A stretch of 64,000 bases of DNA from Candidatus Woesearchaeota archaeon (GTDB lineage: Archaea; Nanobdellota; Nanobdellia; Woesearchaeales; JABGXB01), in assembly GCA_018675975.1 (NCBI GenBank), contig JABGXB010000003.1, positions 267,821 through 331,820 on the forward strand, in the 5' to 3' direction. This document shows, piece by piece, positions 47,052 through 61,878 of the stretch (position 1 is the first letter of the stretch; every line of letters starts with the position of its first letter). A model generated the notes under the pieces. The model did not search any database, was not told the DNA's origin, and saw nothing but the letters and a program-made list of their open reading frames with translations. The translations under genes were made by a program, and so were the position numbers.

Positions 47052-47651
47052 ATGACATATATTGATAATATGATAAGAATTACAAATGAAATCACATTAG
47101 AATTTGAAAAAAATATAATCAAAAAAAAAATCAATTATAATAATATTAATACTGAAAAATTATTAATTTTGTCAAATGAAATGATTCATGATTCAAGTAT
47201 ATATCAAAAAAATATAATTTTAAAATTTTCTACACTAATATATTGTATTGCAAAAATGATTAAAGAACAAAAAAATAAAAAATCAAATAATTTAGAAACC
47301 ATATTTTGTAAATATTATAATAATTTAAAATTAATGTACACTTATTTAAAAAAAAATAATATCAATAAATTTGAAAATAAAATAGTTGAAATTTTTAATT
47401 TAATTTTAAAAAATAATAATAAATTTAATATTTATATTCAAGACATAATTAATTCAACGACAATAAAAAAAGGCTCTAAATTAGTTGATCATGGAATAAG
47501 TATTGAAACAGTTAGTAAAATGACTGGTTTAAATCAATGGGAATTATATAATTATTTAGGTAAAACTAATTTTGAAATAGTATTAGATGAAAAAATACAA
47601 AAAACTCAAAAAAGGCTAGATCATGCTAAAAAAATATTTAATATAAAATGA
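47052..47651 (+). CDS. Protein with C-terminal UPF0175-like HTH (antitoxin-like) and a ~140 aa N-terminal extension
   Basis: The C-terminal segment ISIETVSKMTGLNQWELYNYLGK resembles UPF0175. Its stop overlaps the start of the PIN-like gene (ATGA). Confidence 0.45.
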   Translation: MTYIDNMIRITNEITLEFEKNIIKKKINYNNINTEKLLILSNEMIHDSSIYQKNIILKFSTLIYCIAKMIKEQKNKKSNNLETIFCKYYNNLKLMYTYLKKNNINKFENKIVEIFNLILKNNNKFNIYIQDIINSTTIKKGSKLVDHGISIETVSKMTGLNQWELYNYLGKTNFEIVLDEKIQKTQKRLDHAKKIFNIK

Positions 47652-48346
47652 AACAATTAATATTTGATGCAGGTATAATTATTAATTTATCATTAAATAA
47701 TTTACTTTGGATTTTACCAAAATTAAAAAAACAATTTAATGGAGAATTTATTATACCAAATGCAGTTGAATATGAAATAATAACAAAACCATTACAAATA
47801 AAAAGATTTAAATTAGAGGCAATACAAGTTTTTAATCAAGTACAAAATAAAACTTTAACTATTTCAAATGATAAAAATATAAAACAAATTTATGATCAAA
47901 TAGATCAATTAGCAAATACATCTTTTTCTTGTAATGGACAAATAATTAAAATTATACATAGTGGTGAAATTAGTGTTATTGCCCATGCAATTAATCAAAA
48001 TGCTACTGCAGCAATTGATGAAAGAGCTATGAGAGAATTATTAGAAAATCCAAATGGTTTCTTAAAACATCTTAAAAAAAAATTAAAAAGAAATATACAA
48101 ATGGATAAAGAAAAAATTAAAAAATTAAAATCTTTAACTAAAAATATACAAATAATAAGAAGCAGTGAAATTGTTACAATTGCATATGATTTAGGATTAT
48201 TTAATTTTTATATTGAAAAAGGAATTGAAAAAATATTAAAACAACCAAAAAAACAATTATTAGACTCTTTATTATGGGGAACTAAATTAAGAGGATGTAG
48301 TATAACTGATAAAGAAATAGAATATATTGAAAAAAAAGAAGTATAA
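47648..48346 (+). CDS. PIN-like (DUF3368-type) nucleic-acid-binding protein
   Basis: N-terminal LIFDAGIIINL...FIIPNAVEYEI, then HSGEISVIAHAINQNATAAIDERAMREL. This follows the DUF3368/PIN pattern (D-[AS]-G...iP..V..E...GE...i.lA......D). Confidence 0.55.
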   Translation: MKQLIFDAGIIINLSLNNLLWILPKLKKQFNGEFIIPNAVEYEIITKPLQIKRFKLEAIQVFNQVQNKTLTISNDKNIKQIYDQIDQLANTSFSCNGQIIKIIHSGEISVIAHAINQNATAAIDERAMRELLENPNGFLKHLKKKLKRNIQMDKEKIKKLKSLTKNIQIIRSSEIVTIAYDLGLFNFYIEKGIEKILKQPKKQLLDSLLWGTKLRGCSITDKEIEYIEKKEV

Positions 48347-48347
48347 A

Positions 48348-49298
48348 TTAAATATCAGGTCTATCGAATTTCTTAGTTTTTGGTTTTTTTTCATTAAATT
48401 GAAATCTCTCAATTATATTTTCACCATCATTAGTATTCTTCATAACACCCCAGCCCGGAAATTTATTATCTTGATTGGCAGTATACATTTCTTTAATTTT
48501 AGGAATACCAAAACTCGGTGAATCCCCTTCAGCATTATCATATATATTTTTTAATTTATTTGCACTATACATAAAACTATTTTCTTGGCTTGAATTGTAA
48601 AAACCTTTTTTTAAATCTATTGAACCCGAAGATTCATATTCAGATTTTGAAACAAAATTATTAACTAAATTTTTATCTATTCCAGAATCAGTTAATTTTT
48701 TTATAATATCACTACGTAAATGTATATCCTCACCCACTTCATTAACTTGAACAACTTCATCAATATTAGGTTTAAAACCATCCATATCAATTTTAATTAG
48801 TTTAATAGGAGCATCTACTTCAATATTTTTTTGTTTAATTTCCTCATGTTCTATACTTTCTTCTTTTAAAATTTCAATACTATCTATATTTTTATTTTTT
48901 TCAAAATTTTTATTTTTATTTTCAACTATTTCATTATCCTTATATTTTTTTTTGAAAATAAACCTTTTTGCCTTTTCAATTAAATTAAATTTTTTATTAT
49001 AATCAATATAATTAGATTTATGTTCATTTTCACTTTGAGTTTTAAAATCAAACTCATAGTTAGGTTGATTTTGATTATTTGAATTAGAATTACTTGAAAA
49101 TATATTTAATAAATCCATTAAATTACCTATTTTTAATAATTTTTTAGGTTTATTTTCTTTAATATTGGAATTTTCATTTACTAAATCATCATTAAATTCA
49201 TTTTTACTATTTTTAATTAATTTTTTACTTTCTTTTACATTTTTTGTATTATTTTTTAATACTTTTTTTGATTTTTTTTTAATTAACATTTTTTCCAA
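48348..49298 (-). CDS. Hypothetical Lys/Asn-rich protein
   Basis: A 316 aa ORF. The N-terminal two thirds are low-complexity and the C-terminal ~120 aa look globular. No recognised family. Confidence 0.45.
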   Translation of the reverse strand: MEKMLIKKKSKKVLKNNTKNVKESKKLIKNSKNEFNDDLVNENSNIKENKPKKLLKIGNLMDLLNIFSSNSNSNNQNQPNYEFDFKTQSENEHKSNYIDYNKKFNLIEKAKRFIFKKKYKDNEIVENKNKNFEKNKNIDSIEILKEESIEHEEIKQKNIEVDAPIKLIKIDMDGFKPNIDEVVQVNEVGEDIHLRSDIIKKLTDSGIDKNLVNNFVSKSEYESSGSIDLKKGFYNSSQENSFMYSANKLKNIYDNAEGDSPSFGIPKIKEMYTANQDNKFPGWGVMKNTNDGENIIERFQFNEKKPKTKKFDRPDI

Positions 49299-49346
49299 AA
49301 TATAATAAAACCATTATTATTTAAATAATTAAGCATACGTTTATAA

Positions 49347-52064
49347 ATGAAAAATCTAATTTTATTAATATTGACAGGCCAAAAAAACATAATTAAAGTA
49401 GTGATAATACTAGCATTTTTGATGAGTATAGTGATTTTTTTAAATTACAGTCCATCATTAACAGGAAATTTAGTATATGACTCTAAAGCTTTGTTTAATG
49501 AATTTTTAGATGTTGAAATTTTAATTGGAGATAAAATAAATAAATTAACAGATCATATTGAAATAATTTTTGATGATGATATAGTGTTTAAAGGCAGTGT
49601 TCAAAATTTATTTGATGTTAAAGTAATTGTTGGAAGTAATAATTTATCAAGTTTTGAAGAAATAAAAGATTATACATTTAAAAATAATTTAAAAGGAAAT
49701 ATTTTAATTAAACCAGACTTAATAATTACATTAAATATCACAGGAAACAAAACTACAGCTCTTGATCAAAACAATTTAACTCTAACAAACATTACTTATT
49801 TTTTAAATTATAATGGAAGTCAATTAAATTTAGAGGAAAATGAATTTCAAATCATTGAAAATTATAAAAATCTTAATTCAAATTTAACTATTAATGAATA
49901 TTTAAATCAAACGAATAATACATTAAACGAACAAATATTAAATATAGTAAATCAAAATGAATTTAGTTTATCTAATCAAAGTAATTCTTTTAATATTATA
50001 GTACCAGCATCAATTATACAACAAAAATATAATAATATAATAAATATAAGTGAAAATAGTAATTTAAACAATTTAGTAAATGTAAGTATTGATGAATATG
50101 ATTGGAATATAACAAAATTATCGCATACAATTGAATCTAATAATGATAATATTATTTTAGGTAACTTAAAAATACAAGAAATTTATTTTGATTCAGTAAA
50201 TCCATCAATTGTATTTAATAATAATACAATCAATATAAATGAAAATAAAATTAGTGCAGAGTTTATACTAACTTTAGATGACGTTCAATTAAAATTTGCA
50301 AATTTAAAAAATATTGAAAATACAGTGAATTATTCTAATGATATAATAAGTAATTTATTAGAAAACAATTTGAACTGGTATGAAATTAGTCAAATTAATG
50401 GTGAATTTATTTCAGAGGATACAAATTTAGATTATGAAGTTCAAAAAATAAATGATTTTGATTATATAATTAATGGAACTAAAGACACATTATTTTTTGA
50501 TTTTTCAAATTTAAGTATTAATACAAGAGAATTTGACTATAAAAGTAATTCAGACACATTAGGTAAAAAGAATTTCACATTAAAAGTTACTATTGATAAA
50601 AATACTAAACAATATGATTATACAATTGACTTAGCCACATCATGTCAAGAAAATTGGGTTTGCAAACCAGGAACTTGTTTAGCTGACAATACACAAAAGA
50701 ATAATTGTATTGACGAGAATGGATGCGGTACACAATTTTTAAAACCAGTTGAAACCAAAGCCTGTGTTTATAGTTGTACTCAAAATTGGAATTGTACTGA
50801 ATTTAGTCAATGTAATGAATTAAATTTTCAATTTAGAGTTTGTACTGATAAAAATAATTGTCAAAAATATAATAATACTGCAACTAAACTAATTGAAAAA
50901 GAAAAATTAAGTGAAATTCAAAGTTGTAAAGATAATTGTAATGAAGACTGGAGATGTACATCTTGGTCTTCCTGTTCTAAAGATCAAATATATAGAAGTT
51001 GTACTGATAAAAATACATGTGGAAGTGAAATATTAAAACCCAAAGTCGAAGCAAGTTGTAATGAAATAGTCGATGATCAATATTTAAAAATTTATGAAAA
51101 ATTCTTAGAATCTGAAAATTATGTTAATTTATTAAATCCAAAAAAAAATGAAAAAACAGCAAAAAATACATTGATTGAAAAAAAAGAAGAAAAAAAAGAA
51201 ACGAAAACAGAAAATAGATTAGTTGGTTTTTCAATAAAAGAAGAAGATAATTCAACATCTAGCGGAAAAATTATTATTTTTGTATTAATTGCAATGGGAG
51301 TATTATCATTTACATTTAATGAAAGGGGAAATATAAAACAATTTGTTGGTGAAAGTAATAAAAAAGAATATTTTAAAAATTATTTGAATATTAAAAAACA
51401 AAAAGTTTTACAATTATTTAATAGAAATAATGATGAAAATAATCAAAACAATCAAGAGAATAATCAATTTAATAATTTAAGTTATAATTATTCAAACAAT
51501 ATACAAAGTTCTAATATGGATAATAATGTTAATAATAATGATACAAATAACAATTCAGACAATCAAAATAATTTTAATCAAAATATAAAAATTAATAATT
51601 ATAATCCGAATAATCAATCTCAACAATTAAATTCATACTTAAATTATTATCAAAAATTAGGATATAATGATTATCAAATTAAAAGTTTTTTAATGCAAAA
51701 AGGATACAATTTAAGTCAAATAAATGGTTCATTTAATAGTCAATTAGGTCAAAATAATAATGAGAATAATAATATAAAAAAAGAATTTCATTTTGCAACA
51801 GCCGAGAGTAATAAAAAAACTCATCAAATTACAGTTAATAAAAATATATTTAATAATGCATTAGGGCTATTAAAAAATGATTTTGGAATTGCAAAAGCAC
51901 CAACATCTTTAGTTGCAAAAAGAAATTTTTCATTTACTATATCTCTTATTGAAAAAAATGTAGATGAAAATACTATAATTGAAATATTAAAAAAAAAAGA
52001 CATTAGTGAATCAAATGCATTAGAATTAATTGATAGAGCTAAAGAAAAATTAAATAAATTCTAA
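49347..52064 (+). CDS. Large membrane-spanning protein: ectodomain with three Cys-rich repeats, TM segment, Asn/Gln-rich cytoplasmic tail
   Basis: There is an N-terminal TM segment. Three Cys-rich repeats follow: CQENWVCKPGTC...C...C, CTQNWNCTEFSQC...C...C and CNEDWRCTSWSSC...C...C. A second TM segment (IIIFVLIAMGVLSF) is followed by a long N/Q-rich tract. Confidence 0.6.
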   Translation: MKNLILLILTGQKNIIKVVIILAFLMSIVIFLNYSPSLTGNLVYDSKALFNEFLDVEILIGDKINKLTDHIEIIFDDDIVFKGSVQNLFDVKVIVGSNNLSSFEEIKDYTFKNNLKGNILIKPDLIITLNITGNKTTALDQNNLTLTNITYFLNYNGSQLNLEENEFQIIENYKNLNSNLTINEYLNQTNNTLNEQILNIVNQNEFSLSNQSNSFNIIVPASIIQQKYNNIINISENSNLNNLVNVSIDEYDWNITKLSHTIESNNDNIILGNLKIQEIYFDSVNPSIVFNNNTININENKISAEFILTLDDVQLKFANLKNIENTVNYSNDIISNLLENNLNWYEISQINGEFISEDTNLDYEVQKINDFDYIINGTKDTLFFDFSNLSINTREFDYKSNSDTLGKKNFTLKVTIDKNTKQYDYTIDLATSCQENWVCKPGTCLADNTQKNNCIDENGCGTQFLKPVETKACVYSCTQNWNCTEFSQCNELNFQFRVCTDKNNCQKYNNTATKLIEKEKLSEIQSCKDNCNEDWRCTSWSSCSKDQIYRSCTDKNTCGSEILKPKVEASCNEIVDDQYLKIYEKFLESENYVNLLNPKKNEKTAKNTLIEKKEEKKETKTENRLVGFSIKEEDNSTSSGKIIIFVLIAMGVLSFTFNERGNIKQFVGESNKKEYFKNYLNIKKQKVLQLFNRNNDENNQNNQENNQFNNLSYNYSNNIQSSNMDNNVNNNDTNNNSDNQNNFNQNIKINNYNPNNQSQQLNSYLNYYQKLGYNDYQIKSFLMQKGYNLSQINGSFNSQLGQNNNENNNIKKEFHFATAESNKKTHQITVNKNIFNNALGLLKNDFGIAKAPTSLVAKRNFSFTISLIEKNVDENTIIEILKKKDISESNALELIDRAKEKLNKF

Positions 52065-52777
52065 TTCCATATTGCAATCAAACAAACATTTTTATTAAGA
52101 AATATTTTTTTACTATTTTTAAATTGCTTTAAATTATTAACTTCAATTTCAAAATCAAACATTGATAATTTTTTGGAATTTAAAATATATATCAAACCTC
52201 TATATCCTGGATTTGTAACAATAGAATTTTTTAATTGATCATGTAATTCTTCACCTTCATGAATATGTCCAGAAAATGATATTTCAATATTATTATTTGA
52301 TATAAAATTTGAAAAATCTTTATTACCAACATAATTTGTAATTTTAATATCAAGTAATGTACCAAATGGAGGTCCATGTATCATTAATACTTCATATAAT
52401 TTTTTTTTATTTTTTTTTATTTCTAAATTCGCAAATTTTAAAAATTCAGCATCTTTTTGTGCAAACCCACCACCACCATAACCAATAATAAACAAATCTT
52501 TGAATATTACTGATTTTTTATGAATAAAAATTAAATTTTTAAAATCTTTAATATCATTTTTAGCAGTATTTAACATTTCATGATTACCATGAATAATATA
52601 AGTTTTAACACTATAATCATTTAAAATTTTTAATGATTCTTTGCTTCCTTGACCAAACCAAGAATAGTCCCCACAACATAAACAAACTTCAGCACCATAT
52701 TTTTTAATTAATTTCCCTGCCGTTTTCATTGCATCAATTTCTACATGCATATCAGTTATTGCATAAATAATTCTCAT
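52061..52777 (-). CDS. Calcineurin-like metallophosphoesterase
   Basis: Motifs TDMH, GDYSW, GNHE and GHIHE, in the canonical order. Confidence 0.8.
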   Translation of the reverse strand: MRIIYAITDMHVEIDAMKTAGKLIKKYGAEVCLCCGDYSWFGQGSKESLKILNDYSVKTYIIHGNHEMLNTAKNDIKDFKNLIFIHKKSVIFKDLFIIGYGGGGFAQKDAEFLKFANLEIKKNKKKLYEVLMIHGPPFGTLLDIKITNYVGNKDFSNFISNNNIEISFSGHIHEGEELHDQLKNSIVTNPGYRGLIYILNSKKLSMFDFEIEVNNLKQFKNSKKIFLNKNVCLIAIWN

Positions 52778-52795
52778 ATCACTATTATAATAAAA

Positions 52796-53125
52796 TTATT
52801 TATAAGGTTTATCCGAATAATAAGAAAAATCATTATTCGTACTATTTTTACTTTTCACATTTGAATAATGATCCAATATTTCATTTAATGATTTATTTAA
52901 ATCACTATTATTACTTTCTTGATTTAATTTTTTAGATTCAATTAAATCATTAATACTAATATCATTTTTTTTATATTCTATAATTTCTTTTATTGAGTAA
53001 ACAATAGTTTTTTCTACTAGTTTATATATAAAATCCTCAATTAAATAATTAAAAGTTAGATGAGTAAAAATAGATGCTGATATTAAACCAGTAACTATTT
53101 TTACCTTTTTACCATTTAACTTCAT
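52796..53125 (-). CDS. Hypothetical small membrane-anchored protein
   Basis: A 109 aa protein with one N-terminal hydrophobic segment. It overlaps the upstream Lrp gene by 17 bp. Confidence 0.4.
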   Translation of the reverse strand: MKLNGKKVKIVTGLISASIFTHLTFNYLIEDFIYKLVEKTIVYSIKEIIEYKKNDISINDLIESKKLNQESNNSDLNKSLNEILDHYSNVKSKNSTNNDFSYYSDKPYK

Positions 53126-53600
53126 TTTCTATCAATAATCCAGATATTAAATCAGGATTTGAAAAAAAATCTTCCTTTTTTATATCACCCATTAAATAAA
53201 ATACTTCTTTTTTTTTTATTTTTGTATTTAATTCTAATTTTTCTATAAAATCCTCTAATGCATTCATATCCTTACAAATAATTTCTAATGTAACATCATA
53301 TCCATTATTTATTCTAGATAAAGAATTTACAAAAATGCTTTTAGTCAAATAATTCAAACCTTCATTTTTATTTTCAGGCTTAAATTTAATTAATAGCATT
53401 GCCTTAATATTAAAGCCTATATAAGAGAAATCTACTATACAGGTATGTTTTAGTATAAATTTACTAAAATTATTACGTAAAGACTCAAAAATGGTTGATA
53501 CAGGCACATGAGTCTTCCTAGATAGATTAGTTAATTTCTCTCTATTGTTTTTCCTCAATAAAGCTAATAGTTTTAGTTTTTTTTGATCCATTGTTATCAC
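53109..53600 (-). CDS. Lrp/AsnC family transcriptional regulator
   Basis: An N-terminal HTH (LLALLRKNNREKLTNLSRKTHVPVSTIFESL) is followed by a RAM-like ligand domain. About 160 aa. Confidence 0.75.
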   Translation of the reverse strand: MITMDQKKLKLLALLRKNNREKLTNLSRKTHVPVSTIFESLRNNFSKFILKHTCIVDFSYIGFNIKAMLLIKFKPENKNEGLNYLTKSIFVNSLSRINNGYDVTLEIICKDMNALEDFIEKLELNTKIKKKEVFYLMGDIKKEDFFSNPDLISGLLIENEVKW

Positions 53601-53706
53601 AATATCCCTTAAGCAATACTTTGCTATATATTTAGGTAAATAAAGAATTCTTATAATAATTTAATCAGCTGAATTTATTTTCAGCAAAATATTTAAACTA
53701 GATTTA

Positions 53707-54375
53707 TTGACTAAAATTATGTTAGAAGAATTTAATGATCAAATACCGTTTTATAATTATTTAGATATAATAAAAGAATATTATGATAATGATTTTGAAA
53801 AAGAATTTGTAAATAAAAAATCTAAAGAATTAAATAAATTATATGGAACTAAAAAAATTGAATTACCTTTAAATTTAATTAAGCAAAATAAACTTTATAT
53901 TTTTCAAAATAGTAATTTAGAATTAATATTTTTAGAATTATTAAAAAATCATTTAAACAAAGTAAAAATTGTAGTTGAAATTAATAAACAAGAAATTGCA
54001 TATTTACAAGGATTTTTATCTAATTATTCTATTGAAAAAATATGTAAAATATTATCATTTGGAGATGAACTACAATATTCAAGAGTATTAGATTTAGCAA
54101 AATATGGACATTTCCCTCAAATTAATTTAGTTATTGATTTAGATTATTCAAAAGTAGTAGATTTTTTTAAAATAATAAATTTACTATATTTATTAGGTGC
54201 AAATACATCTTTTGGTTTTTACGAGGATAAAAAGAAAATTGCTATTATAGACTACTCTTATACATTAATATTTAATACAGATTTTTTTAATAAAAATATT
54301 TTAAATAAAGTAATTAATAATATAAAAAATAAAATACCAAAATTTCCAATAAATTTATTTGGACATGAAGAATAA
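53707..54375 (+). CDS. Hypothetical protein
   Basis: A 222 aa ORF with a TTG start in the track; ATG at 53719 is an alternative. No recognised family. Confidence 0.45.
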   Translation: MTKIMLEEFNDQIPFYNYLDIIKEYYDNDFEKEFVNKKSKELNKLYGTKKIELPLNLIKQNKLYIFQNSNLELIFLELLKNHLNKVKIVVEINKQEIAYLQGFLSNYSIEKICKILSFGDELQYSRVLDLAKYGHFPQINLVIDLDYSKVVDFFKIINLLYLLGANTSFGFYEDKKKIAIIDYSYTLIFNTDFFNKNILNKVINNIKNKIPKFPINLFGHEE

Positions 54376-55006
54376 AATGAAAATCCATATTGGAAGTAAT
54401 AATAATAATTTAGCAAAAGATTTTATTGAAATAGATTCAACATTTGAAAGATTAAGCCCAATTAATTATTATAAAAAAATAATAAATTCCAATCCTAATA
54501 AAAAATTTATAATAAAAGCAAATAAAGAAATAACACATTTTAATTTTATAAAAAATTTATCATTTGTAGATTCTCAAGAAGAAATCATATTAGATAAAAA
54601 AGGACCAAGTTCAATATTATTACATAAATTTAAACAAATATGTGATTTATTTAATGACAAATTATTATTTATATTATTTAAATTCCCTTATGGTTTTAAA
54701 AACACATTTCAAAATAGAGAGTTTTTATTTAAATTAAATAAAATATTCAATACACCAATAGCATTTGAATTTGAAAATAAAGAATTTGAAAATTATTATA
54801 ATGAATTTAATCAACTCAATATAATAATAGTAAATAAAAATTCAAACATTTGTGGAAATTTTATTCAAAATTTAGATATCCATAATATGAATTATAAAAC
54901 TAATTTAAATAATCTATATTTGATGATAAATAGTCAAGAAGAATTAAATATTGCCACAAAAATAATTGAAAAATACAAAAATCAAAGCACTATTAGCAAT
55001 TTTTGA
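54359..55006 (+). CDS. Possible DUF72 (UPF0759) family protein
   Basis: The segment FIEIDSTFERLSPINYYKK...KFIIKANKEITH resembles the DUF72 pattern (F..vE.N.tFY..p.....F.F.vKa...iTH). It is shorter than typical members. Confidence 0.45.
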   Translation: MDMKNKMKIHIGSNNNNLAKDFIEIDSTFERLSPINYYKKIINSNPNKKFIIKANKEITHFNFIKNLSFVDSQEEIILDKKGPSSILLHKFKQICDLFNDKLLFILFKFPYGFKNTFQNREFLFKLNKIFNTPIAFEFENKEFENYYNEFNQLNIIIVNKNSNICGNFIQNLDIHNMNYKTNLNNLYLMINSQEELNIATKIIEKYKNQSTISNF

Positions 55007-55064
55007 TTTAAAAAAATAAAAATAATCAAAACACTTAAAAACCACATAATTTTTTGTCAATTAA

Positions 55065-55137
55065 AGTCCCGTAGTGTAGTGGCCTATCATCGTGCCCTTT
55101 GGAGGCGCGGACCCCGGTTCAAATCCGGGCGGGACTA
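55065..55137 (+). tRNA. tRNA-Gln (TTG)
   Basis: A 73 nt cloverleaf: acceptor AGTCCCG/CGGGACT with A1:U72, anticodon stem GTGCC/GGCGC with loop CTTTGGA, T-arm CCCGG-TTCAAAT-CCGGG, and discriminator A. Confidence 0.9.
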
Positions 55138-55179
55138 CTTTTTATTCTCAAATAATTTTCCAGAAACATATTGGAAATA

Positions 55180-55189
55180 CTTATAAATA
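55180..55189 (+). promoter_or_regulatory. Candidate TATA box (cttataaata) for the 499 aa orphan gene
   Basis: The consensus TATA word lies about 75-80 nt upstream of the ATG at 55264. That implies an unusually long leader for this genome. Confidence 0.4.
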
Positions 55190-55206
55190 AAAAATTATTT
55201 CAAATA

Positions 55207-55216
55207 GTGATATCAC
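55207..55216. promoter_or_regulatory. Perfect 10 bp palindrome gtgatatcac at the predicted transcription start
   Basis: It lies about 20-25 nt downstream of the TATA word, where archaeal repressors typically bind. Confidence 0.35.
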
Positions 55217-55263
55217 CACTAAATGGGTACGATATGATGGAAACAATAAACTTGAATTAAAAA

Positions 55264-56763
55264 ATGAATAAATTATACTCAGCAATATTTGCAGTGTCCA
55301 GATCTACAAATTTGGATACTATTTTAGATTCTACTAGAAGATGGATTGCAAACAGTCCACACAATAATATTACAATTGATAGATTAAAAGATTTAGGAAG
55401 AGACGACTTTTTTGTAGAAGATGAAATAGATGATAGAACAATAACTATAACATCACAAAATATTATGAGCGATCAAGAATATTACACTTCATCCAAGCAA
55501 AGAGTTGCAAATAGTGTTGGTACATATACATCAGAATTAACACTTAAAGAATCTTATGGATTAGACACTATTGTTTCTTTACAAATTTATTTTGAAGGAA
55601 ATGTTATAAAACCATTTTTCAAACCAAGTCTATTGCCTTATTTTATCCTTAAGGATTCAAAAAAAGCATTTGATGGTAAAATTCTTAATATTCAAGGTGA
55701 ATATCATTTGTCTAAAAAAGGAAGTGAAAAATTTTTAGCCGAAGTATTAAATAATGAAAGTGAAAATAAATTGCCAGTGATATATGTTAGTAAAAATGAT
55801 CAAAATGAATGGGAACTAAATCCAACTTATTTAGCAAAAACTTTATCTGGTTTAGCACATGTAATTTGTGAAGATGATAAAGACTCAAAATTTATTTTAA
55901 AAGAATTATGTGATGGAAATAATTGTTATGATGGTGCTGTTGGAGTTTATAATCCAAACGGTATGCGTTTATTTTTTTTAAAAGATAATGATTACAGTCA
56001 CATTCTTGGAGACGTAACAAAAGAATTAAATTTTGAAGATAAAATTATTCACTATATTAATTCATTATCCAAATATAAAACAACACCAACTAATTTAACA
56101 TATTCAGCAGTTAATAGAATACAACAAGCAGAAAGAATAAATTTTTTAAAAAATGAACTCGCCAATAGAAAAGGTAATGAAAAAAATGAAAATATATTTG
56201 AAGAATTGTGTGTTTTATTAGAAAAAGATAAAGAAGTTTTAATCAGAGATAATGATGCAACATTAGATGAACTTCAAGAAAGATTAGATGAATGTCAATC
56301 TTTAAGATCTAAAATTGAATTTCTATCACAACAACAAAATCAAAATGGAACTCCATCTGAATTTTTTGGTAATATGAGTGATATTCAAAGACTTCACCCT
56401 GAAGAATTTAATGACTATATAATTAGTTTAGTAAAAAAAGATTATGAAAGTATTAAAACTCAAGATGACACAAGAAAAATACAATTTACTAAAAGATTTT
56501 TAGAAGAAAACCCAAGATCTGGTAATACCCCATTAGAAGAAATAAGAAAAAGTTTATCTCAAATTAATGGTAAAACTATTGCTAAAAGTGATTTAAATTT
56601 TTTAAATCAATTTGGATTTATTGTTGGTCAAGGATCAAATCATTATAAAATAACCATCCCAGGTTATAGTGGTTTTTGGACAATGCCAAGTACTCCAAGT
56701 GATAAAAGATCATTAAAAAATAATTTATCTGGTTTTATTAATAAATTCTTTTTATCTAAATAA
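55264..56763 (+). CDS. Hypothetical multidomain protein (N-terminal beta-rich domain, Rossmann-like segment, coiled coil, C-terminal small alpha/beta domain)
   Basis: A 499 aa intact ORF with a LPVIYVS...LAHVICEDD beta-alpha-beta segment and a coiled coil at about residues 285-365. The C-terminus GQGSNHYKITIPGYSGFWTMPSTPSDKRSLKNNLSGFINKF faintly recalls the HicA/YcfA layout. No family assigned. Confidence 0.6.
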   Translation: MNKLYSAIFAVSRSTNLDTILDSTRRWIANSPHNNITIDRLKDLGRDDFFVEDEIDDRTITITSQNIMSDQEYYTSSKQRVANSVGTYTSELTLKESYGLDTIVSLQIYFEGNVIKPFFKPSLLPYFILKDSKKAFDGKILNIQGEYHLSKKGSEKFLAEVLNNESENKLPVIYVSKNDQNEWELNPTYLAKTLSGLAHVICEDDKDSKFILKELCDGNNCYDGAVGVYNPNGMRLFFLKDNDYSHILGDVTKELNFEDKIIHYINSLSKYKTTPTNLTYSAVNRIQQAERINFLKNELANRKGNEKNENIFEELCVLLEKDKEVLIRDNDATLDELQERLDECQSLRSKIEFLSQQQNQNGTPSEFFGNMSDIQRLHPEEFNDYIISLVKKDYESIKTQDDTRKIQFTKRFLEENPRSGNTPLEEIRKSLSQINGKTIAKSDLNFLNQFGFIVGQGSNHYKITIPGYSGFWTMPSTPSDKRSLKNNLSGFINKFFLSK

Positions 56764-56783
56764 ACAAAAAAATAAATAAAAAA

Positions 56784-57479
56784 TTAATCATTGTTTTTTA
56801 TAATTTCAAAATCTCTCAAATTCTTATCATAAAAAATTGAAGATCCTTTAGCAAGTGCATGATAAGGAAAACTACACCCTCCTAAAAATGAAACCTCTAA
56901 ATCTCCTTCAGTTCCTTTTTCCATTATTTCGTTTAAACCAGAATTATTGCAAACACCAGTAAAAACAGGATTAACATCTTTACGCATATTTGATCTATAA
57001 GTATTTAATATTTCAATTGCAGCAGTACTTTTTTTAACACTTTTTGCTAAACTAAATAATAATTGACCACCTTCTGTAGAAACTAAATAAATATCACCCG
57101 GAGTGGATCTATATTTTAATGATCCTAATACAAAATGTTCATTTAAAATAGCAGAAGAATCCAAACCTGGAAAATTCATCATAAAAGAATCAATTTCTTG
57201 TTCTCCTAACAAGTCATCAAAATCTTTAACATTTTTAGTCTTCCCAACTAAAGAGTAAGAATTCAATCCATTATGTGAACTTAATAATTGTAAATTATTT
57301 CTTTCTAAAGTTTCATCAGTAATTCCTTTTATTACTAAATCTTTAGCTATTCTTGCACAAGGAGTTATGTATTTTTCAACACTTCCATCTAGTTTTGGCA
57401 CCATAACCAAGGAATCAACCATCATTCCTACTGTCTCATCCTCAAACCTATGACTATATAATATTAAATCTCTTTTCAT
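56784..57479 (-). CDS. Hypothetical protein
   Basis: A 231 aa intact ORF, convergent with the 499 aa gene (20 bp gap). It looks globular and not low-complexity. No recognised motif. Confidence 0.55.
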   Translation of the reverse strand: MKRDLILYSHRFEDETVGMMVDSLVMVPKLDGSVEKYITPCARIAKDLVIKGITDETLERNNLQLLSSHNGLNSYSLVGKTKNVKDFDDLLGEQEIDSFMMNFPGLDSSAILNEHFVLGSLKYRSTPGDIYLVSTEGGQLLFSLAKSVKKSTAAIEILNTYRSNMRKDVNPVFTGVCNNSGLNEIMEKGTEGDLEVSFLGGCSFPYHALAKGSSIFYDKNLRDFEIIKNND

Positions 57480-57618
57480 TGTAAAAAAAATAAAGATATC
57501 TCATTGATAAAATAAATCGATTTTTTAATATAAATTAATTCAAAAATACCAATTAAAACTATAGTTTACAAAATATATTCATTTATAAAACAAAAAAATC
57601 ACTAAAAAGTGGTTACAA

Positions 57619-59049
57619 ATGATAAAAACTAATATTGGAATAAGCACATTTAATGATATGGATATTAGTCTTGAATCTAAAGAAACAAGAGAAAATAGTA
57701 ATTTAGAAGCAACCTTAGAACAAGTAGAAGTTAATGAACTTGATTCTCAAAAAGAAATTGAAGAATATAAACAAGAAATTACTAATTTTTTACCACAATT
57801 ATATGAAATTTTATTTGAAAATGGTAGAATTAAAGATAGTATGAAATCATTTAATGAAATAGAATTAAGTGATTTAGAAAATGAATTAAATTCACGTGAA
57901 ATTGATCCACAAAAAGAATCAAGAAGATCATTGACATTGAAACAATTAGTTAATTACACTAGGTCAAATTTAAAAGTTGATTATAAAGATGAATATAATC
58001 AAAAAAATGTTATTATTATTGACTATTTCGGAACTAAAATTGCATTAGATGATTCATTTTTAAAAATATTTCAAAAAAATAAAAGCAAATTAAAAATTAA
58101 AGATCTTAATCAAAAGAATATAGAAGACTTAAAAAAACAAATTAGTGAAATAGAAAAAAAATATGAACATCTTAAACCAGAAAGTAAAAAAAAAGAAAGT
58201 AAAATAAATTTTAAAAAATTGGCAACTATTGCAGCTACAACAGCAACAATATGTATGGGATCATATTTAACATTATATGGAATAATACATTATAATAGTA
58301 TAAATGAAGAACAAAGAATTATTAGTCAAAATGAATTATTCTTAAGCCCACGTAAAAACTTTCAAAGAAGTATAAAAAATAAAAAAACTAAAATTGATAA
58401 TTTTTTATTATATGAAACTACCGATTTTGGACAATTATCAAATTCTAAATTGCGTGAGTTAGATAATATAGATTTTAATCAAATGTTTTCAATTGATAAA
58501 AATAAATATCAAAATATACCTGAAAGATTATTAGAAAAAAAAATCAAAGAATTTTCACAATATGAAAATGAATTTGTTTTAGCTATAAAAAATATTTGTA
58601 AAAAAATTGCAAAGTCTATTGATGAATTTAATAATCAATATAAAAATAATACATTTAAAATAGAAAAACAATTAGCTCAAAAAATATCAGAAGATGTTAA
58701 ACAAAATAATAGATCATTACCAAGTATAATGTACACATTTTTAACAGAAAAAAATGTTTCTTTGTATATTAAAAATAGAGTTAAGAACAAAAATTCCGAA
58801 ATATTAAATTATAAAAGAGTAACCAACCCAAATAAATTACAAATTAATTATCTAATGGAAATGACTTTAAATTCTTATTTTACTAATGGAATTGAAACTG
58901 CAATAAAAACACAACTTGGAGTGGATTCATATTTGGATTATTTAGATAGTAAAAATCAAGATGAAATAAAATTAAAGGCACCAAAAACATTAACTCATTT
59001 AATTCAAAAAATAAATCAATTTATAATACATAAAAACAAAAATTTTTAA
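57619..59049 (+). CDS. Hypothetical protein with a central TM segment and coiled-coil N-terminal half
   Basis: A 476 aa protein with a single hydrophobic segment (LATIAATTATICMGSYLTLYGII). A TATA word lies at 57582-57590. Confidence 0.5.
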   Translation: MIKTNIGISTFNDMDISLESKETRENSNLEATLEQVEVNELDSQKEIEEYKQEITNFLPQLYEILFENGRIKDSMKSFNEIELSDLENELNSREIDPQKESRRSLTLKQLVNYTRSNLKVDYKDEYNQKNVIIIDYFGTKIALDDSFLKIFQKNKSKLKIKDLNQKNIEDLKKQISEIEKKYEHLKPESKKKESKINFKKLATIAATTATICMGSYLTLYGIIHYNSINEEQRIISQNELFLSPRKNFQRSIKNKKTKIDNFLLYETTDFGQLSNSKLRELDNIDFNQMFSIDKNKYQNIPERLLEKKIKEFSQYENEFVLAIKNICKKIAKSIDEFNNQYKNNTFKIEKQLAQKISEDVKQNNRSLPSIMYTFLTEKNVSLYIKNRVKNKNSEILNYKRVTNPNKLQINYLMEMTLNSYFTNGIETAIKTQLGVDSYLDYLDSKNQDEIKLKAPKTLTHLIQKINQFIIHKNKNF

Positions 59050-59071
59050 AAAAACTTAATTTTAAAATAAT

Positions 59072-60133
59072 ATGAAAATTTGTCCAAAATGTCAAAAAAA
59101 TGAAACAAATAATAAATTTTGTAATTTTTGTTATTCGAATCTATTAAATATAATATTAAAAGAAAAATATGATTTAGAAAAATGTAATGATTGTAAATCT
59201 ATTTTTATTACAAATAAACAATATAAACAAATAAATGAAAAAACTTTTATTGAATTATTATTGGGCCAAATTAGATTTAATAATCAATATAATTTAGATG
59301 TTGAAAATGTAGATGCGGCATATTATAATTATGATAGAAAAGATATTGAATTTGAAATAGAAAATATAAAATTTGTAATCTTAGATATTGATTTAATCAT
59401 AGACATAAAAGAATTTGAAAATATAGAACAAAAAATTAATTTGAAAAAGAAAATTGAATATAAAATAGTTAATAATAAATGTAAAGAATGTCAGAAATTT
59501 GATTCAGAATATTTTGAAGGAATATTACAAGTTAGATTTGATAAAAAAGAATTTAATAATGATTATCAAAATATTAAAGAAAAAATTAAAGAAATTATAA
59601 TTGACTATAGAGCTCAAATTAATAAAATGGTGGAATTAGAAAATGGAATCGATTTTTATGTCCTTAATAAAAAATTATTGCCAAATATGGGTAATTTAAT
59701 ATTAAATAAAATTGTTGGTGAAGAAAAAATTTCAGCAACTTTGTTTTCAAGAAATAATCAAACAAGTAAAGATATATATAGATTAAAATATTTGACAAAA
59801 TTAAAAAATTTATTTTTATTTGATTATATTGAATATAATGGTGAAGTTTATCAAATAATTAAAATTAAGAAAAAGAATTTAATTGCAAAAAATATTATTA
59901 ATAATCAAAATACAAATTTATATAATAATATAGCAGATATAAATAAAATAAATGAATTTTTAGAAGCAGAAGTAATTAGAATACAACCTAATATTCAAAT
60001 ACTCGATCCAATAGATTTTTCTGTTAAAAATATTATTAATGAATCTGAACAAATAAAACAAAAATTAAATTATGATAGTAAAGTAAATATCATTAGATTA
60101 GAAGATAAAATATATATAGTTGACCAAAATTAA
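59072..60133 (+). CDS. NMD3-family protein (archaeal homolog of the 60S export adaptor, COG1499-like)
   Basis: Four CxxC pairs (CPKC, CNFC, CNDC, CKEC) and the FEGILQVR motif, at about 350 aa. Confidence 0.7.
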   Translation: MKICPKCQKNETNNKFCNFCYSNLLNIILKEKYDLEKCNDCKSIFITNKQYKQINEKTFIELLLGQIRFNNQYNLDVENVDAAYYNYDRKDIEFEIENIKFVILDIDLIIDIKEFENIEQKINLKKKIEYKIVNNKCKECQKFDSEYFEGILQVRFDKKEFNNDYQNIKEKIKEIIIDYRAQINKMVELENGIDFYVLNKKLLPNMGNLILNKIVGEEKISATLFSRNNQTSKDIYRLKYLTKLKNLFLFDYIEYNGEVYQIIKIKKKNLIAKNIINNQNTNLYNNIADINKINEFLEAEVIRIQPNIQILDPIDFSVKNIINESEQIKQKLNYDSKVNIIRLEDKIYIVDQN

Positions 60134-60225
60134 CCAAAGTCAAAAGAGATAATTTTACAATCAATAGGAATTATATATATTGAATTGGAACAAAGTTTTA
60201 TATACATATTTAAAAAAATAAAAAT

Positions 60226-60387
60226 ATGGAAAAATATGGTATTTTTTATGATCAAATTAAAATTGATAGAATAAAAAATATGAAACAAGAAGAAAATCAT
60301 AATTTTAAAATTCCATTAAGTAAATATTTTATTTATATTTTAATATATATTATCCTAATAATATTAATAAATATTTTATTTAAATGA
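60226..60387 (+). CDS. Possible small tail-anchored membrane protein (below the ORF-track cutoff)
   Basis: I translate 53 codons as MEKYGIFYDQIKIDRIKNMKQEENHNFKIPLSKYFIYILIYIILIILINILFK. It lies in an otherwise empty 240 bp gap, and its end overlaps the convergent 3' end of the AMP phosphorylase gene by 12 bp. Confidence 0.25.
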   Translation: MEKYGIFYDQIKIDRIKNMKQEENHNFKIPLSKYFIYILIYIILIILINILFK

Positions 60388-61878
60388 ATAAGGATCAGCT
60401 AATTTTAAAAAATTATTAATTTGATTTAATTTAATGTTTGTATATGAATATACTCTAAATAGAATTTCATTTTTTTTAACTTTATCATTTTGTTTTTTTA
60501 ATAAATAAACACCACATCCTTTATGACTTGGAGCTCCAGCCATTTTTGCAATTTTACTTATAATTTTATTATCAATTTGTTTTACAATACCAGATTTATT
60601 TGATTTAACTTCATATATACATTTTGATAATTTATTTTTTAAATTATTAGTGCCATTTATTTTTTTCCCACCTTGTGCCACAATTATTTCATTAAATTTA
60701 TCAAATGCTTTATTAGAATATAAAATGTCACGAGCTACAATTTCACCTTGACCTTTTTTATATAAACCACCAAGCTCTAACATATTACCAGCTAATTTAA
60801 TACTTTTATCAATTAAATCTTTTAAATGATCATGTTGATTTTTTAATACATCATAAACATCGATTGCCTCTAAAACGGGACCCAAACCACAACCAATTGG
60901 ATTTTTTCCATCAGTTAAAACAGCATGAACATTTAGTCCAATTGAATGTCCTACTTTTTCAAAATCAGATTTTAATGAAAGTGCGTCTTTTTTTGAGCTT
61001 ATTTTAGAACCCATCCCATAAGGAATATCAATTAATACTTTATTACTACTAACACTTCTTTTTTTGGATAAAACTGAAGCTATTAATTGACCTCTTGGAT
61101 CTAAAGAAAGAGGATGTTCAACATTAATTATTATATCATCTGCAGGAGCTAAATCTAAAGCCCCACCCCATGTAATACATGCACCAGTTTTTTTTACAAC
61201 TTTTTTCATTTTAGAAATATCTAAATCTACATTAGTAAAAACTTCAAATGTATCTGCAGTACCAGCAGGAGATGTAATTGAACGTGAAGAAGTTTTAGGA
61301 ACTACATAACCTGCAACTGCTAATATTGGAACAACAATCATTGTAGTTCTATTTCCAGCAACACCACCTATACAATGCTTATCAATCACATTTTTAGAAC
61401 CAAATTTAATTATTTTACCAGTTTCAACCATGGATTTAGTTAATGCAATTGTTTCATCTAAATTTAAAGGATTACAATAACAAGCACTAACAAAATATGT
61501 AATTTCAACTTCAGTTAATATATTGTCTTTTATATCATTAATAATTTTTGTAAATTGATCTTTATTTAATCTTTCACCTTGTAATTTCTTTTTAATATAA
61601 TTTAATGTAATAGGTTCATTAATGTGAAATAATCTAACAATATCATTATGTTTTAAATTTAATTTTTCTCTTACTTCATCTAATACACCAACTTGGCCAT
61701 TTTTTAAAAAATCCGAATCAATTATATCAACCATAGCAATAAGTTCTTTTTTATTAAATCTAATACCCATTCTACTTTTTGGAGGAATATTTAATTTTGC
61801 ACAATCATATTTAGTTAAATATACTACTAAAGGACCACCAGTTTTAATTTTAATTTTTTTTATTTTAAAGTACATCAT
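60376..61878 (-). CDS. deoA: AMP phosphorylase (archaeal thymidine-phosphorylase family, DeoA-type)
   Basis: A ~500 aa protein with the extra N-terminal domain and the motifs IDKHCIGGVAGNRTT and PKTSSRSITSPAGTADTFE. Confidence 0.85.
   Translation of the reverse strand: MMYFKIKKIKIKTGGPLVVYLTKYDCAKLNIPPKSRMGIRFNKKELIAMVDIIDSDFLKNGQVGVLDEVREKLNLKHNDIVRLFHINEPITLNYIKKKLQGERLNKDQFTKIINDIKDNILTEVEITYFVSACYCNPLNLDETIALTKSMVETGKIIKFGSKNVIDKHCIGGVAGNRTTMIVVPILAVAGYVVPKTSSRSITSPAGTADTFEVFTNVDLDISKMKKVVKKTGACITWGGALDLAPADDIIINVEHPLSLDPRGQLIASVLSKKRSVSSNKVLIDIPYGMGSKISSKKDALSLKSDFEKVGHSIGLNVHAVLTDGKNPIGCGLGPVLEAIDVYDVLKNQHDHLKDLIDKSIKLAGNMLELGGLYKKGQGEIVARDILYSNKAFDKFNEIIVAQGGKKINGTNNLKNKLSKCIYEVKSNKSGIVKQIDNKIISKIAKMAGAPSHKGCGVYLLKKQNDKVKKNEILFRVYSYTNIKLNQINNFLKLADPYSFK

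What the first reader, a model, noticed from the sequence alone, without database searches (positions are those of the whole stretch)
55138..59049. Island of three large orphan genes next to tRNA-Gln
Seen in sequence: directly downstream of tRNA-Gln(TTG) lie three intact ORFs that match no family I can recognise and are not low-complexity. They are a 499 aa multidomain protein, a convergent 231 aa globular protein only 20 bp away, and a 476 aa protein with a coiled coil and one TM segment. The 499 aa protein has a beta-rich N-terminal domain, a Rossmann-like LPVIYVS...HVICEDD segment, a ~80 aa coiled coil, and a small C-terminal domain GSNHYKITIPG...TMPSTPSDKRSLKNN that loosely recalls the HicA/YcfA layout. 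Unlike most genes here, the first gene has a long leader with a perfect palindrome at the predicted transcription start.

Established knowledge: tRNA-flanked blocks of orphan multidomain genes are typical locations for defence or accessory systems.

Inference: this may be an accessory or defence-like module. No integrase or att repeat was found, so mobility is unproven.
Basis: partly seen in the sequence, partly recalled or inferred. Interest (0 to 1): 0.65.

Follow-up and report, generated by a model that had tools for sequence, protein, structure and literature searches.

The report
HEC-07-like defence protein with HicA RNase
One of the three "orphan" genes in this tiny archaeon belongs to a large unnamed family related to a proven anti-virus protein but carrying a different RNA-cutting tail, while the other two genes are true orphans with no sign of working with it.

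Summary
The sequence features are real: tRNA-Gln, three intact ORFs (499, 231 and 476 aa), a 20-bp convergent gap and a 10-nt palindrome in the leader. The window comes from a marine Candidatus Woesearchaeota (DPANN) genome.

The 499 aa protein (A) is not an orphan. A profile search finds 3,588 cluster representatives, in DPANN archaea, many bacterial phyla, small plasmids, an ICE and proviral contigs. No Pfam, NCBIfam or PHROG model covers the family.

No neighbour is conserved across 83 family loci, so A most likely acts alone as a sensor–RNase defence protein. This function is inferred, not shown.

B (231 aa) and C (476 aa) match only themselves and never accompany A's relatives. No integrase, att repeat or presence/absence polymorphism was found, so a three-gene module or mobile island is not supported.

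Verdict: effector-swapped variant of a known defence kind; moderate interest.

The parts
55065..55138 (+). tRNA-Gln(TTG). This is a context landmark only; no evidence shows it served as an integration site.
   Evidence: ARAGORN. No second copy of its 3' end occurs in the window.
55139..55263 (+). 125-nt leader of gene A. It holds a TATA-like TTATAAAT (55181-55188) and the perfect palindrome GTGATATCAC (55207-55216), a possible operator at the predicted transcription start.
   Evidence: Sequence. Palindrome statistics: 12 G/C-containing 10-nt palindromes in 64 kb, and this one is unique. It is not conserved in archaeal homologues. Its function is untested.
55264..55680 (+). Gene A, N-terminal alpha+beta domain (aa 1-139). 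Near-invariant W27 and W88, invariant P125 and D137. The second half aligns with HEC-07.
   Evidence: Family alignments. hhalign to HEC-07 starts at window residue 86. The model has low confidence here.
55681..55998 (+). Gene A, thioredoxin-fold domain without CxxC (aa 140-245). Motifs LPVIYVS, GLAHV and GAVGVYNP; invariant P171, H199 and G224.
55999..56568 (+). Gene A, helical linker with a long coiled coil (aa 246-435; predicted helices 280-301 and 306-357).
   Evidence: Model secondary structure. PDB sequence hits are coiled-coil proteins only.
56569..56763 (+). Gene A, C-terminal HicA-like (dsRBD-type alpha-beta-beta-beta-alpha) putative RNase domain (aa 436-499 plus stop). The invariant His460 (codon 56641-56643) lies in GSNH, as in E. 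coli HicA.
   Evidence: PADLOC HicA-like E=2.2e-6. The family C-terminal profile's top PDB hit is E. coli HicA 6hpb_A. hhalign 89%. Pfam HicA_toxin is the top family for 10/38 isolated domains. Predicted topology. H460 is invariant in 118 sequences.
56784..57479 (-). Gene B, a 231 aa soluble ORFan convergent with A. There is no evidence of a functional link to A.
   Evidence: Matches only itself among 5.8 billion proteins. No profile or PDB hits. AlphaFold single-sequence pLDDT 32. Absent near 83 family loci.
57619..59049 (+). Gene C, a 476 aa ORFan with a charged N-terminal half, one borderline hydrophobic segment (aa 201-225) and a C-terminal domain of about 250 aa. It lies 22 bp upstream of NMD3 on the same strand.
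   Evidence: Matches only itself. No profile or PDB hits. Hydropathy. Absent near family loci.

Best explanation
Gene A (55264-56763) encodes a stand-alone, single-polypeptide immune or abortive-infection protein. It belongs to a large, so far unmodelled family that shares the sensor scaffold of the validated defence protein HEC-07. That scaffold is an N-terminal alpha+beta domain, a thioredoxin-fold domain lacking CxxC, and a coiled coil. The family carries a divergent HicA-like RNase domain at the C-terminus where HEC-07 has a RelE-like one.

Inferred mechanism:
- The N-terminal and thioredoxin-like domains keep the HicA-like domain inactive, probably in a coiled-coil dimer.
- An infection cue sensed by these domains releases the RNase.
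- The RNase uses the invariant His460 to cleave cellular and/or viral RNA and stops translation.

Genes B and C are lineage-specific orphan genes of this DPANN archaeon that merely lie next to A. C may be co-transcribed with the housekeeping gene NMD3.

Shown here: homology, domain folds, conserved residues, stand-alone and patchy distribution, and carriage on mobile elements. Inferred: RNase activity, autoinhibition, the trigger, and an antiviral role in this archaeon.
For: Homology to HEC-07:
- PADLOC HEC-07 model PDLC04161 matches the window protein at E=4.4e-7 over aa 157-365.
- The same model matches 74 of 78 family members, best 1.3e-16.
- hhalign of the family profile against the tested HEC-07 protein WP_033943166.1 (first 399 aa, from Table S2 of 10.1101/2024.01.29.577857) gives 94.8% probability, E=5e-8, over 230 columns. 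The DG, AHV and Y.P motifs are in register.
- HEC-07 is described as AdoMetDC-like + thioredoxin-like without CxxC + RelE. It was among the 7 of 9 candidates that reduced plaquing in E. coli as a single gene.

Thioredoxin fold:

HicA-like C-terminus:
- PADLOC HicA-like E=2.2e-6.
- The top PDB hit of the domain profile is E. coli HicA, with the His aligned.
- hhalign gives 89%.
- Pfam HicA_toxin is the top family for the isolated domains.
- The predicted topology is alpha-beta-beta-beta-alpha.
- H460 is invariant.

Stand-alone and accessory behaviour:
- No neighbour cluster occurs in more than 6 of 83 loci.
- Neighbours range from housekeeping genes to DarTG, PD-Lambda-2, RM-I S subunits, integrases and transposases.
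- Members occur as ICE cargo in Dickeya and as the main cargo of 5.9-kb mobilizable Klebsiella plasmids.
- Members occur on 24 IMG/VR contigs.

Archaeal context:
- An archaeal clade exists: the 13 best genome hits are archaeal MAGs and they cluster in an NJ tree.
- DPANN archaea are reported to favour compact single-gene systems (PMC12988326).
Against: - No experiment exists on this protein or on any HicA-type member.
- The window protein's own matches are sub-threshold. The PADLOC hit covers only 41% of the HEC-07 profile. BLASTP to HEC-07 gives E=0.17. Its C-terminal domain alone does not hit Pfam HicA_toxin at E<=1.
- The AlphaFold model is poor overall (mean pLDDT 58; the N-domain is mostly <50). 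Foldseek against the PDB found nothing significant.
- The last 150 residues of HEC-07 could not be retrieved. The RelE-versus-HicA difference therefore rests on the preprint's description and on where the profile match ends.
- In the archaeal loci the gene sits among housekeeping genes, with no defence island around it.
- No virus of this host is known.
Confidence: 0.55

Rival explanations
1. A, B and possibly C form a lineage-specific multi-gene module. For example, B could be a novel antitoxin or regulator that neutralises the HicA-like domain of A.
For: A and B are convergent with only 20 bp between their stops. A and B have higher G+C (0.255 and 0.282) than the flanking genes DUF72 and NMD3 (0.17). 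Classical HicA toxins need a HicB partner (Gerdes, mBio 2024). The order A-B-C is fixed in all population contigs.
Against: No relative of B or C lies next to any of 83 other family loci (tblastn E>0.5). No neighbour family is conserved. HEC-07 works alone. B shows no HicB, HTH or RHH signature in Pfam, NCBIfam or PADLOC. Convergent orientation rules out co-transcription of A and B. The population is clonal, so the fixed order carries no information. G+C of 0.25-0.28 is within the window's range.
Confidence: 0.08
2. A is not an immune protein. It is a plasmid/MGE addiction or stress-responsive toxin: a fused, self-inhibited HicA-type toxin-antitoxin whose role is element maintenance or growth arrest.
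For: A member is the main cargo of 5.9-kb ColE1-type plasmids, beside a RelE/ParE pair. Another is ICE cargo. The effector is related to a TA toxin. Fused HicA proteins are known.
Against: The closest characterised relative protects against phages. Many members are chromosomal and lie far from MGE genes, including the archaeal ones. Addiction and defence roles are not mutually exclusive.
Confidence: 0.2
3. A is a housekeeping or regulatory RNA-binding protein of the archaeon, with the dsRBD-like domain used for RNA binding rather than cleavage. The whole block is ordinary lineage-specific core genome.
For: It is flanked by housekeeping genes (DUF72, tRNA-Gln, NMD3, AMP phosphorylase, ProRS) with no MGE marks. 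The gene order is fixed in the population. The archaeal homologues also sit among housekeeping genes, and L021/L022 are syntenic.
Against: The distribution is sparse and patchy across very distant phyla and on plasmids, an ICE and proviral contigs. The neighbourhoods of the DPANN homologues are not syntenic with the window. The HicA catalytic His is invariant. The family is homologous to a validated defence protein.
Confidence: 0.12

Closest known systems
HEC-07 (Hma-embedded candidate 07; PADLOC models PDLC04158-04161; tested protein WP_033943166.1 of Pseudomonas aeruginosa; Payne et al., bioRxiv 10.1101/2024.01.29.577857)
   Same: Both are single large polypeptides of about 500-550 aa. The N-terminal domain (at least its second half), the thioredoxin-fold domain without CxxC and the following helical region are homologous, with shared DG, AHV and Y.P motifs. 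Both have a small C-terminal RNase-toxin-type domain with a conserved His. Both are stand-alone genes.
   Different: The C-terminal effector is HicA-like (dsRBD-type, His about 40 residues from the end) and not RelE-like (His543 of 549). The PADLOC profile match stops at position 402 of 553. Sequence identity is very low (BLASTP E=0.17). The host is a DPANN archaeon. No activity data exist.
HicA toxins of type II HicAB toxin-antitoxin systems (e.g. E. coli HicA, PDB 6HPB; Pfam PF07927)
   Same: The predicted alpha-beta-beta-beta-alpha unit is about 60 residues. The G-S-N-H-x-K motif is identical to E. coli HicA 'GSNHLK', and the invariant His is aligned. HicA_toxin is the top Pfam family for the isolated domains.
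   Different: The domain is fused to a 435-residue N-terminal region and is not a free 60-aa toxin. There is no HicB gene. It falls below Pfam's threshold. It carries a family-specific KT.SD.R.G.N motif in the second half. RNase activity has not been shown.
Gerdes Class 14 'SMC-HicA' fusion proteins (mBio 2024, PMC10865869; example WP_223300692.1)
   Same: Class 14 is described as coiled coils plus 'a globular domain' plus a C-terminal canonical HicA domain, encoded as a single gene. Some members of the present family cross-hit SMC-like PADLOC models (LmuB, JetC) through their coiled coil.
   Different: Class 14 is described as an SMC ATPase fusion, sometimes with a NERD domain. The present family has no ATPase motifs or SMC head. 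Identity of the two groups could not be tested because the sequence sheet is truncated in the held copy.
CapRel(SJ46)-type fused toxin-antitoxin defence proteins (works-like comparison; cited in Gerdes 2024)
   Same: The logic is the same: one polypeptide in which a regulatory or sensor part holds a translation-targeting toxin domain inactive until an infection cue arrives.
   Different: The folds and chemistry are unrelated (a tRNA pyrophosphokinase versus a putative RNase). The analogy is inferential only.

Membership tests
HEC-07 (PADLOC) | Matches the PADLOC HEC-07 profile HMMs | tested here: inconclusive
   PDLC04161 E=4.4e-7, 27 bits, covering profile positions 178-402 of 553. PDLC04159 E=0.0014. 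74/78 family members hit, best 1.3e-16. The match is partial and weak for the window protein.
HEC-07 (PADLOC) | Second domain with a thioredoxin fold lacking the CxxC active site | tested here: met
HEC-07 (PADLOC) | N-terminal AdoMetDC-like domain | tested here: inconclusive
HEC-07 (PADLOC) | C-terminal RelE-family RNase domain with a conserved His near the extreme C-terminus | tested here: not met
   The C-terminus is HicA-like. The HEC-07 profile match ends before the effector domain. The HEC-07 C-terminal sequence itself was not retrievable.
HEC-07 (PADLOC) | Functions as a single gene | tested here: met
   No conserved neighbour occurs in 83 loci. This is genomic evidence only.
HEC-07 (PADLOC) | Protects against phage or virus infection | not testable with these tools
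   This needs expression and challenge assays.
HicA toxin (PF07927 / HicAB type II TA) | dsRBD-like alpha-beta-beta-beta-alpha fold of about 60 residues | tested here: met
   Predicted elements are H441-449, E453-456, E460-464, E472-475 and H481-496, at pLDDT about 65-75. This is a prediction only.
HicA toxin (PF07927 / HicAB type II TA) | Conserved catalytic His preceded by Gly in the first strand | tested here: met
   H460 is invariant in 118 sequences. The window's 'GSNHYK' aligns with E. coli HicA 'GSNHLK'.
HicA toxin (PF07927 / HicAB type II TA) | Recognised by the curated Pfam model at its gathering score | tested here: not met
   The window protein has no PF07927 hit. 10/38 isolated family domains hit at best E=2.1e-4.
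HicA toxin (PF07927 / HicAB type II TA) | Adjacent or fused HicB antitoxin | tested here: not met
   No HicB-like gene or domain was found. B has no profile hits and is not conserved with the family.
Gerdes Class 14 SMC-HicA | SMC-like coiled-coil protein with a C-terminal HicA domain; sequence relatedness to WP_223300692.1 | not testable with these tools
   The sequence sheet is truncated in both held copies. Only a descriptive resemblance is available.
tRNA-linked genomic island | Integrase or recombinase at the island border | tested here: not met
   No integrase or transposase family occurs among the 24 genes within +/-10 kb.
tRNA-linked genomic island | Direct repeat of the tRNA 3' end (att) at the far border | tested here: not met
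   Only one match to the 22-nt 3' end of tRNA-Gln occurs in the window, allowing up to 3 mismatches.
tRNA-linked genomic island | Presence/absence polymorphism among close relatives | tested here: inconclusive
   All >20 contigs with the exact NMD3 or A protein have the block and are 100% identical. No other close relative was found among GTDB representatives.

The most novel reading that the evidence does not exclude
The HEC-07 scaffold (N-domain + CxxC-less thioredoxin fold + coiled coil) may be a general, widespread infection-sensing platform with interchangeable RNase warheads (RelE or HicA). On this reading, the HicA-type branch (>3,500 clusters at 50% identity, no model in Pfam, NCBIfam, PHROGs or PADLOC 2.0) includes an archaeal clade that is one of the few immune systems of genome-reduced DPANN archaea. 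The invariant His/Ser/Asp/Pro constellation in the thioredoxin-fold domain would be the trigger- or ligand-binding site.
Probability: 0.4. Interest if true: 0.6.

Novelty: new variant of a known kind. Interest (0 to 1): 0.45.

Why it matters
If this is right, thousands of proteins now labelled 'hypothetical' or 'coiled-coil domain-containing' can be annotated. These proteins occur in bacteria, plasmids, prophages and DPANN archaea. They would be relatives of a validated defence system with a swapped RNase effector.

It would add a candidate immune gene to DPANN archaea, which are reported to be poor in CRISPR and restriction-modification and to rely on compact single-gene systems (PMC12988326).

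It gives a clean natural experiment for how one sensor scaffold controls two unrelated RNase toxins, RelE-like and HicA-like.

It also shows that the two neighbouring orphan genes should not be assumed to belong to the system.

Tried and rejected
- Pfam, NCBIfam and PHROGs on A, B and C gave nothing significant.
- PDB sequence searches with A, the 7- and 118-sequence family profiles and the middle-domain profile gave only coiled-coil noise or nothing.
- Foldseek of the A model against the PDB gave no hit at E<=0.001.
- I tested whether B is a diverged trypsin-like protease, like the convergent gene that follows the homologue in L003. BLASTP showed no similarity. Rejected.
- AlphaFold on B as a single sequence gave pLDDT 32, which is unusable, so no fold search was run on it.
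- dN/dS from population variants was impossible, because all contigs are 100% identical.
- Synteny with close relatives, using the neighbouring AMP phosphorylase against GTDB genomes, found no relatives.
- The locus search failed with the broad alignments A3 and A1 because no conserved stretch was found. It worked with the tighter alignment A6.
- tRNA adjacency as a family trait is only sporadic.
- A conserved upstream palindrome is absent in the archaeal homologues.
- Retrieval of the Class 14 SMC-HicA sequences and of the HEC-07 C-terminus failed because the cells or sheets are truncated.
- The family was not found in the phage genome collection. It is present on IMG/VR proviral contigs.


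Full report
**1. What is there**

The window is very AT-rich (G+C 0.234). It matches a Candidatus Woesearchaeota archaeon, a DPANN archaeon. The exact 499 aa protein is NCBI HOK68_00290, and it lies on GCA_018667555.1 contig JABIUC010000018.1 and on a 1.03-Mb JGI contig.

- tRNA-Gln(ttg) lies at 55065-55138.
- Gene A is 55264-56763 (+), 499 aa.
- Gene B is 56784-57479 (-), 231 aa, convergent with A, with 20 bp between the stops.
- Gene C is 57619-59049 (+), 476 aa.

The flanking genes are ordinary. Upstream are DUF72 and an Lrp/AsnC-like regulator. Downstream are NMD3, AMP phosphorylase, an AI-2E-type transporter and ProRS.

**2. Gene A is not an orphan**

The word-indexed search found only six distant relatives, at 20-24% identity. 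A profile built from them, scored against 1.84 billion cluster representatives, found far more:
- 3,588 proteins at E<=1e-3 and 862 at E<=1e-30.
- The best 150 are all full-length proteins of about 460-525 aa.

Alignments of 78 and 118 members show an invariant or near-invariant residue set (window numbering):
- N-domain: W27, W88, P125, D137.
- Middle domain: P171, S176, G196, A198, H199, V200, G224, Y229, P231.
- C-terminal domain: G451, F452, H460, D468, R470, Y471, S479, D480, R482, N486.

No Pfam, NCBIfam or PHROG model covers the family. Public records call its members 'hypothetical protein' or 'coiled-coil domain-containing protein'.

**3. Relationship to HEC-07**

- PADLOC's HEC-07 model PDLC04161 matches the window protein at E=4.4e-7, aligning aa 157-365 to profile positions 178-402 of 553.
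- The same model matches 74 of 78 family members, best 1.3e-16.
- HEC-07 comes from Payne et al., bioRxiv 10.1101/2024.01.29.577857. It is a single protein with three parts: an AdoMetDC-like N-domain, a thioredoxin-like domain lacking CxxC, and a C-terminal RelE-family RNase domain with a conserved His543.
- HEC-07 was one of seven of nine candidates that reduced plaquing in E. coli.
- I recovered the first 399 residues of the tested protein, WP_033943166.1, from the preprint's Table S2.
- hhalign of the 78-member family profile against these residues gives 94.8% probability and E=5e-8 over 230 columns.
- The aligned region runs from the second half of the N-domain, through the middle domain, into the helical region. 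The DG, G.AHV and Y.P motifs are aligned.
- Pairwise BLASTP of the window protein against HEC-07 is not significant by itself (E=0.17). It does align GLAHVI with GVAHVI.

**4. Domain folds**

An AlphaFold model built from the 7-sequence alignment is poor overall (mean pLDDT 58). It is usable for residues ~140-260 (pLDDT 70-83) and ~440-496 (about 65-75).
- Foldseek against the PDB gave nothing significant.
- The sequence has no CxxC.
This independently reproduces what was reported for HEC-07.
- Residues 246-435 are helical with a long coiled coil. That coiled coil explains the coiled-coil noise in the PDB sequence searches.

**5. The C-terminus is HicA-like**

The evidence:
- PADLOC 'HicA-like' matches at E=2.2e-6, aa 447-486. 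It also matches 28/78 members.
- A profile of the isolated domain has E. coli HicA (6hpb_A) as its top hit among 177,635 PDB sequences. The E-value is weak (0.052), but the family's invariant His aligns on the His of HicA's GSNH.
- hhalign gives 89% probability.
- Pfam HicA_toxin is the top family for isolated domains: 10/38, best 2e-4. The window's own domain does not reach E<=1.
- The predicted topology is alpha-beta-beta-beta-alpha.
- The window reads GSNHYK where E. coli HicA reads GSNHLK.

From my own knowledge of the HicA literature, that His is the catalytic residue of HicA mRNA interferases.

The HEC-07 profile match ends before the effector domain. In this family the conserved His lies ~40 residues from the end, whereas in HEC-07 it is residue 543 of 549. 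The effector has therefore been swapped, with a HicA-like domain in place of the RelE-like one.

**6. Stand-alone, patchy and often on mobile elements**

- A pattern scan of one genome per GTDB species found 156 relatives, and 80 loci were fetched. The 13 best are archaeal MAGs, mostly labelled Woese-, Nano- or Pacearchaeota and some labelled Methanosarcinales. Many bacterial phyla follow.
- In an NJ tree the archaeal members cluster together, and the window protein sits on a long branch.
- Clustering 1,389 neighbour ORFs from 83 loci shows no neighbour family present in more than 6 loci, and none at a fixed position.
- The genes within +/-2 positions range widely. The archaeal loci have housekeeping genes (RNA polymerase B, RadA, eIF-2beta, endonuclease V). 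Others have DarTG, PD-Lambda-2, type I RM S subunits, integrases and transposases.
- Members are ICE cargo in Dickeya.
- One lies next to a resolvase and an AbiJ-like gene.
- One is the main cargo of 5.9-kb ColE1-type mobilizable Klebsiella plasmids.
- Members occur on 24 IMG/VR contigs. None occurs in the GenBank phage collection.

**7. Genes B and C**

- Both match only themselves among 5.8 billion proteins.
- Both hit nothing in Pfam, NCBIfam, PADLOC, PHROGs or PDB.
- tblastn of B and C against the 83 family loci finds nothing (E>0.5).
- B's single-sequence model is unusable (pLDDT 32).
- B shows no similarity to the convergent Trypsin_2 gene that follows the homologue in L003.
- C has typical K/N/I-rich composition and one borderline hydrophobic segment at aa 201-225. 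It lies 22 bp upstream of NMD3 on the same strand.
- Orphan genes are common here: 11 of the 24 genes around the locus have no Pfam hit.

Nothing links B or C to A beyond adjacency.

**8. Island and mobility**

- No integrase lies within +/-10 kb, and there is no second copy of the tRNA 3' end.
- The order DUF72-tRNA-Gln-A-B-C-NMD3 is the same in every contig that carries the exact A or NMD3 protein. This covers more than 20 contigs from several metagenome samples, and all are 100% identical in sequence. The population is clonal, so this says nothing about presence or absence.
- No close relative genome was found.
- G+C of A and B (0.255 and 0.282) exceeds that of the immediate flanks (0.17). 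It is still within the window's range.
- tRNA adjacency recurs only sporadically in the family.
- Around A there is no dense defence island. The only nearby PADLOC hits are generic: a metallophosphoesterase to PDC-S10 and a DUF3368 protein to PDC-S70.

**9. The leader**

GTGATATCAC at 55207-55216 is a perfect palindrome ~20-25 nt downstream of a TATA-like element. G/C-containing 10-nt palindromes are rare in the window: 12 in 64 kb, or ~0.02 expected per 125 nt. The motif is unique here and has no counterpart upstream of the archaeal homologues. It may be an operator, but this is untested.

**10. Mechanism**

Best estimate, confidence 0.55. A is a single-polypeptide sensor-effector.
- The N-terminal and thioredoxin-fold domains hold the HicA-like RNase inactive, probably in a coiled-coil dimer.
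- An infection cue releases the RNase, and RNA cleavage arrests translation.
- The logic is the same as proposed for HEC-07 and for fused toxin-antitoxin defence proteins such as CapRel, which Gerdes cites.
- Shown here: homology, folds, conserved residues and genomic behaviour. Inferred: activity, trigger and antiviral role.

Rivals:
- An MGE addiction or stress toxin (0.2).
- A housekeeping RNA-binding role (0.12).
- A true A-B(-C) module (0.08).

**11. Novelty**

The kind is known: HEC-07, and HicA domains in defence contexts. Gerdes' Class 14 'SMC-HicA' may be the same proteins, but this could not be tested. What appears new:
- The link between the HicA-type proteins and the HEC-07 scaffold.
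- The size of the unmodelled family.
- Its archaeal clade. DPANN archaea are reported as depleted in CRISPR and RM and enriched in single-gene systems (PMC12988326).

I rate this a new variant of a known kind, of moderate interest. The 'three-gene orphan island' reading is not supported.

Noticed in passing
window 47052-48346 (+): A 199 aa gene overlaps the start of a 232 aa DUF3368 (PIN-like) gene. The layout looks like a toxin-antitoxin pair. The DUF3368 protein weakly hits PADLOC PDC-S70 (E=2e-5), and a small ORF with a faint WYL hit lies just upstream.
   Followed up: partly
window 52061-52777 (-): A calcineurin-like metallophosphoesterase matches the PADLOC candidate PDC-S10 at E=3e-13. 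This may be generic metallophosphatase similarity and not evidence of defence.
   Followed up: partly
window, ORF not located (one of the 59 ORFs scanned, outside 45158-59049): One window protein hits the PADLOC TIR effector and PycTIR models at about 1e-10. Others give weak AbiLi, AbiO, Nhi, VakA and PDC-S01 hits. The strong IetA/TRIP13 and DndA/SspA hits are probably housekeeping AAA+ ATPase and cysteine desulfurase cross-matches.
   Followed up: no
window 54359-61878 compared with L004-L017: Contigs from more than ten different metagenome assemblies, including Saanich Inlet 2009 (SI34jun09_200m) and several ENA and Logan runs, are 100% identical to the window over about 7.5 kb. The single exception is one substitution in NMD3 in L004. 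This DPANN population is remarkably clonal.
   Followed up: partly
window 49347-52064 (+): A 905 aa protein has an N-terminal hydrophobic segment, repeated Cys-rich CxxxxC modules, a second hydrophobic segment and a long Asn-rich low-complexity tail. It has no Pfam hit and looks like a lineage-specific surface protein.
   Followed up: no
L098 (Klebsiella pneumoniae plasmid NZ_CP028803.2, 5,897 bp): A ColE1-type mobilizable plasmid has as its largest gene a member of the HEC-07/HicA-like family (WP_064169724.1). It lies directly downstream of a TraY-domain/RelE-ParE pair. Near-identical plasmids recur in several clinical isolates.
   Followed up: partly
L021 9341-12452 and L022 2331-5439: In two archaeal MAGs the family gene is packed with zero or overlapping spacing between same-strand genes of 221 aa and 131 aa. 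These neighbours are conserved between the two loci. This is the only recurrent tight neighbourhood seen, and it could be plain synteny of related genomes.
   Followed up: no
L003 4364-5029 (-): In one homologue's locus a Trypsin_2 serine-protease gene is convergent with the family gene, only 3 bp from its end. This resembles the A/B layout in the window, but the two downstream proteins are unrelated.
   Followed up: yes
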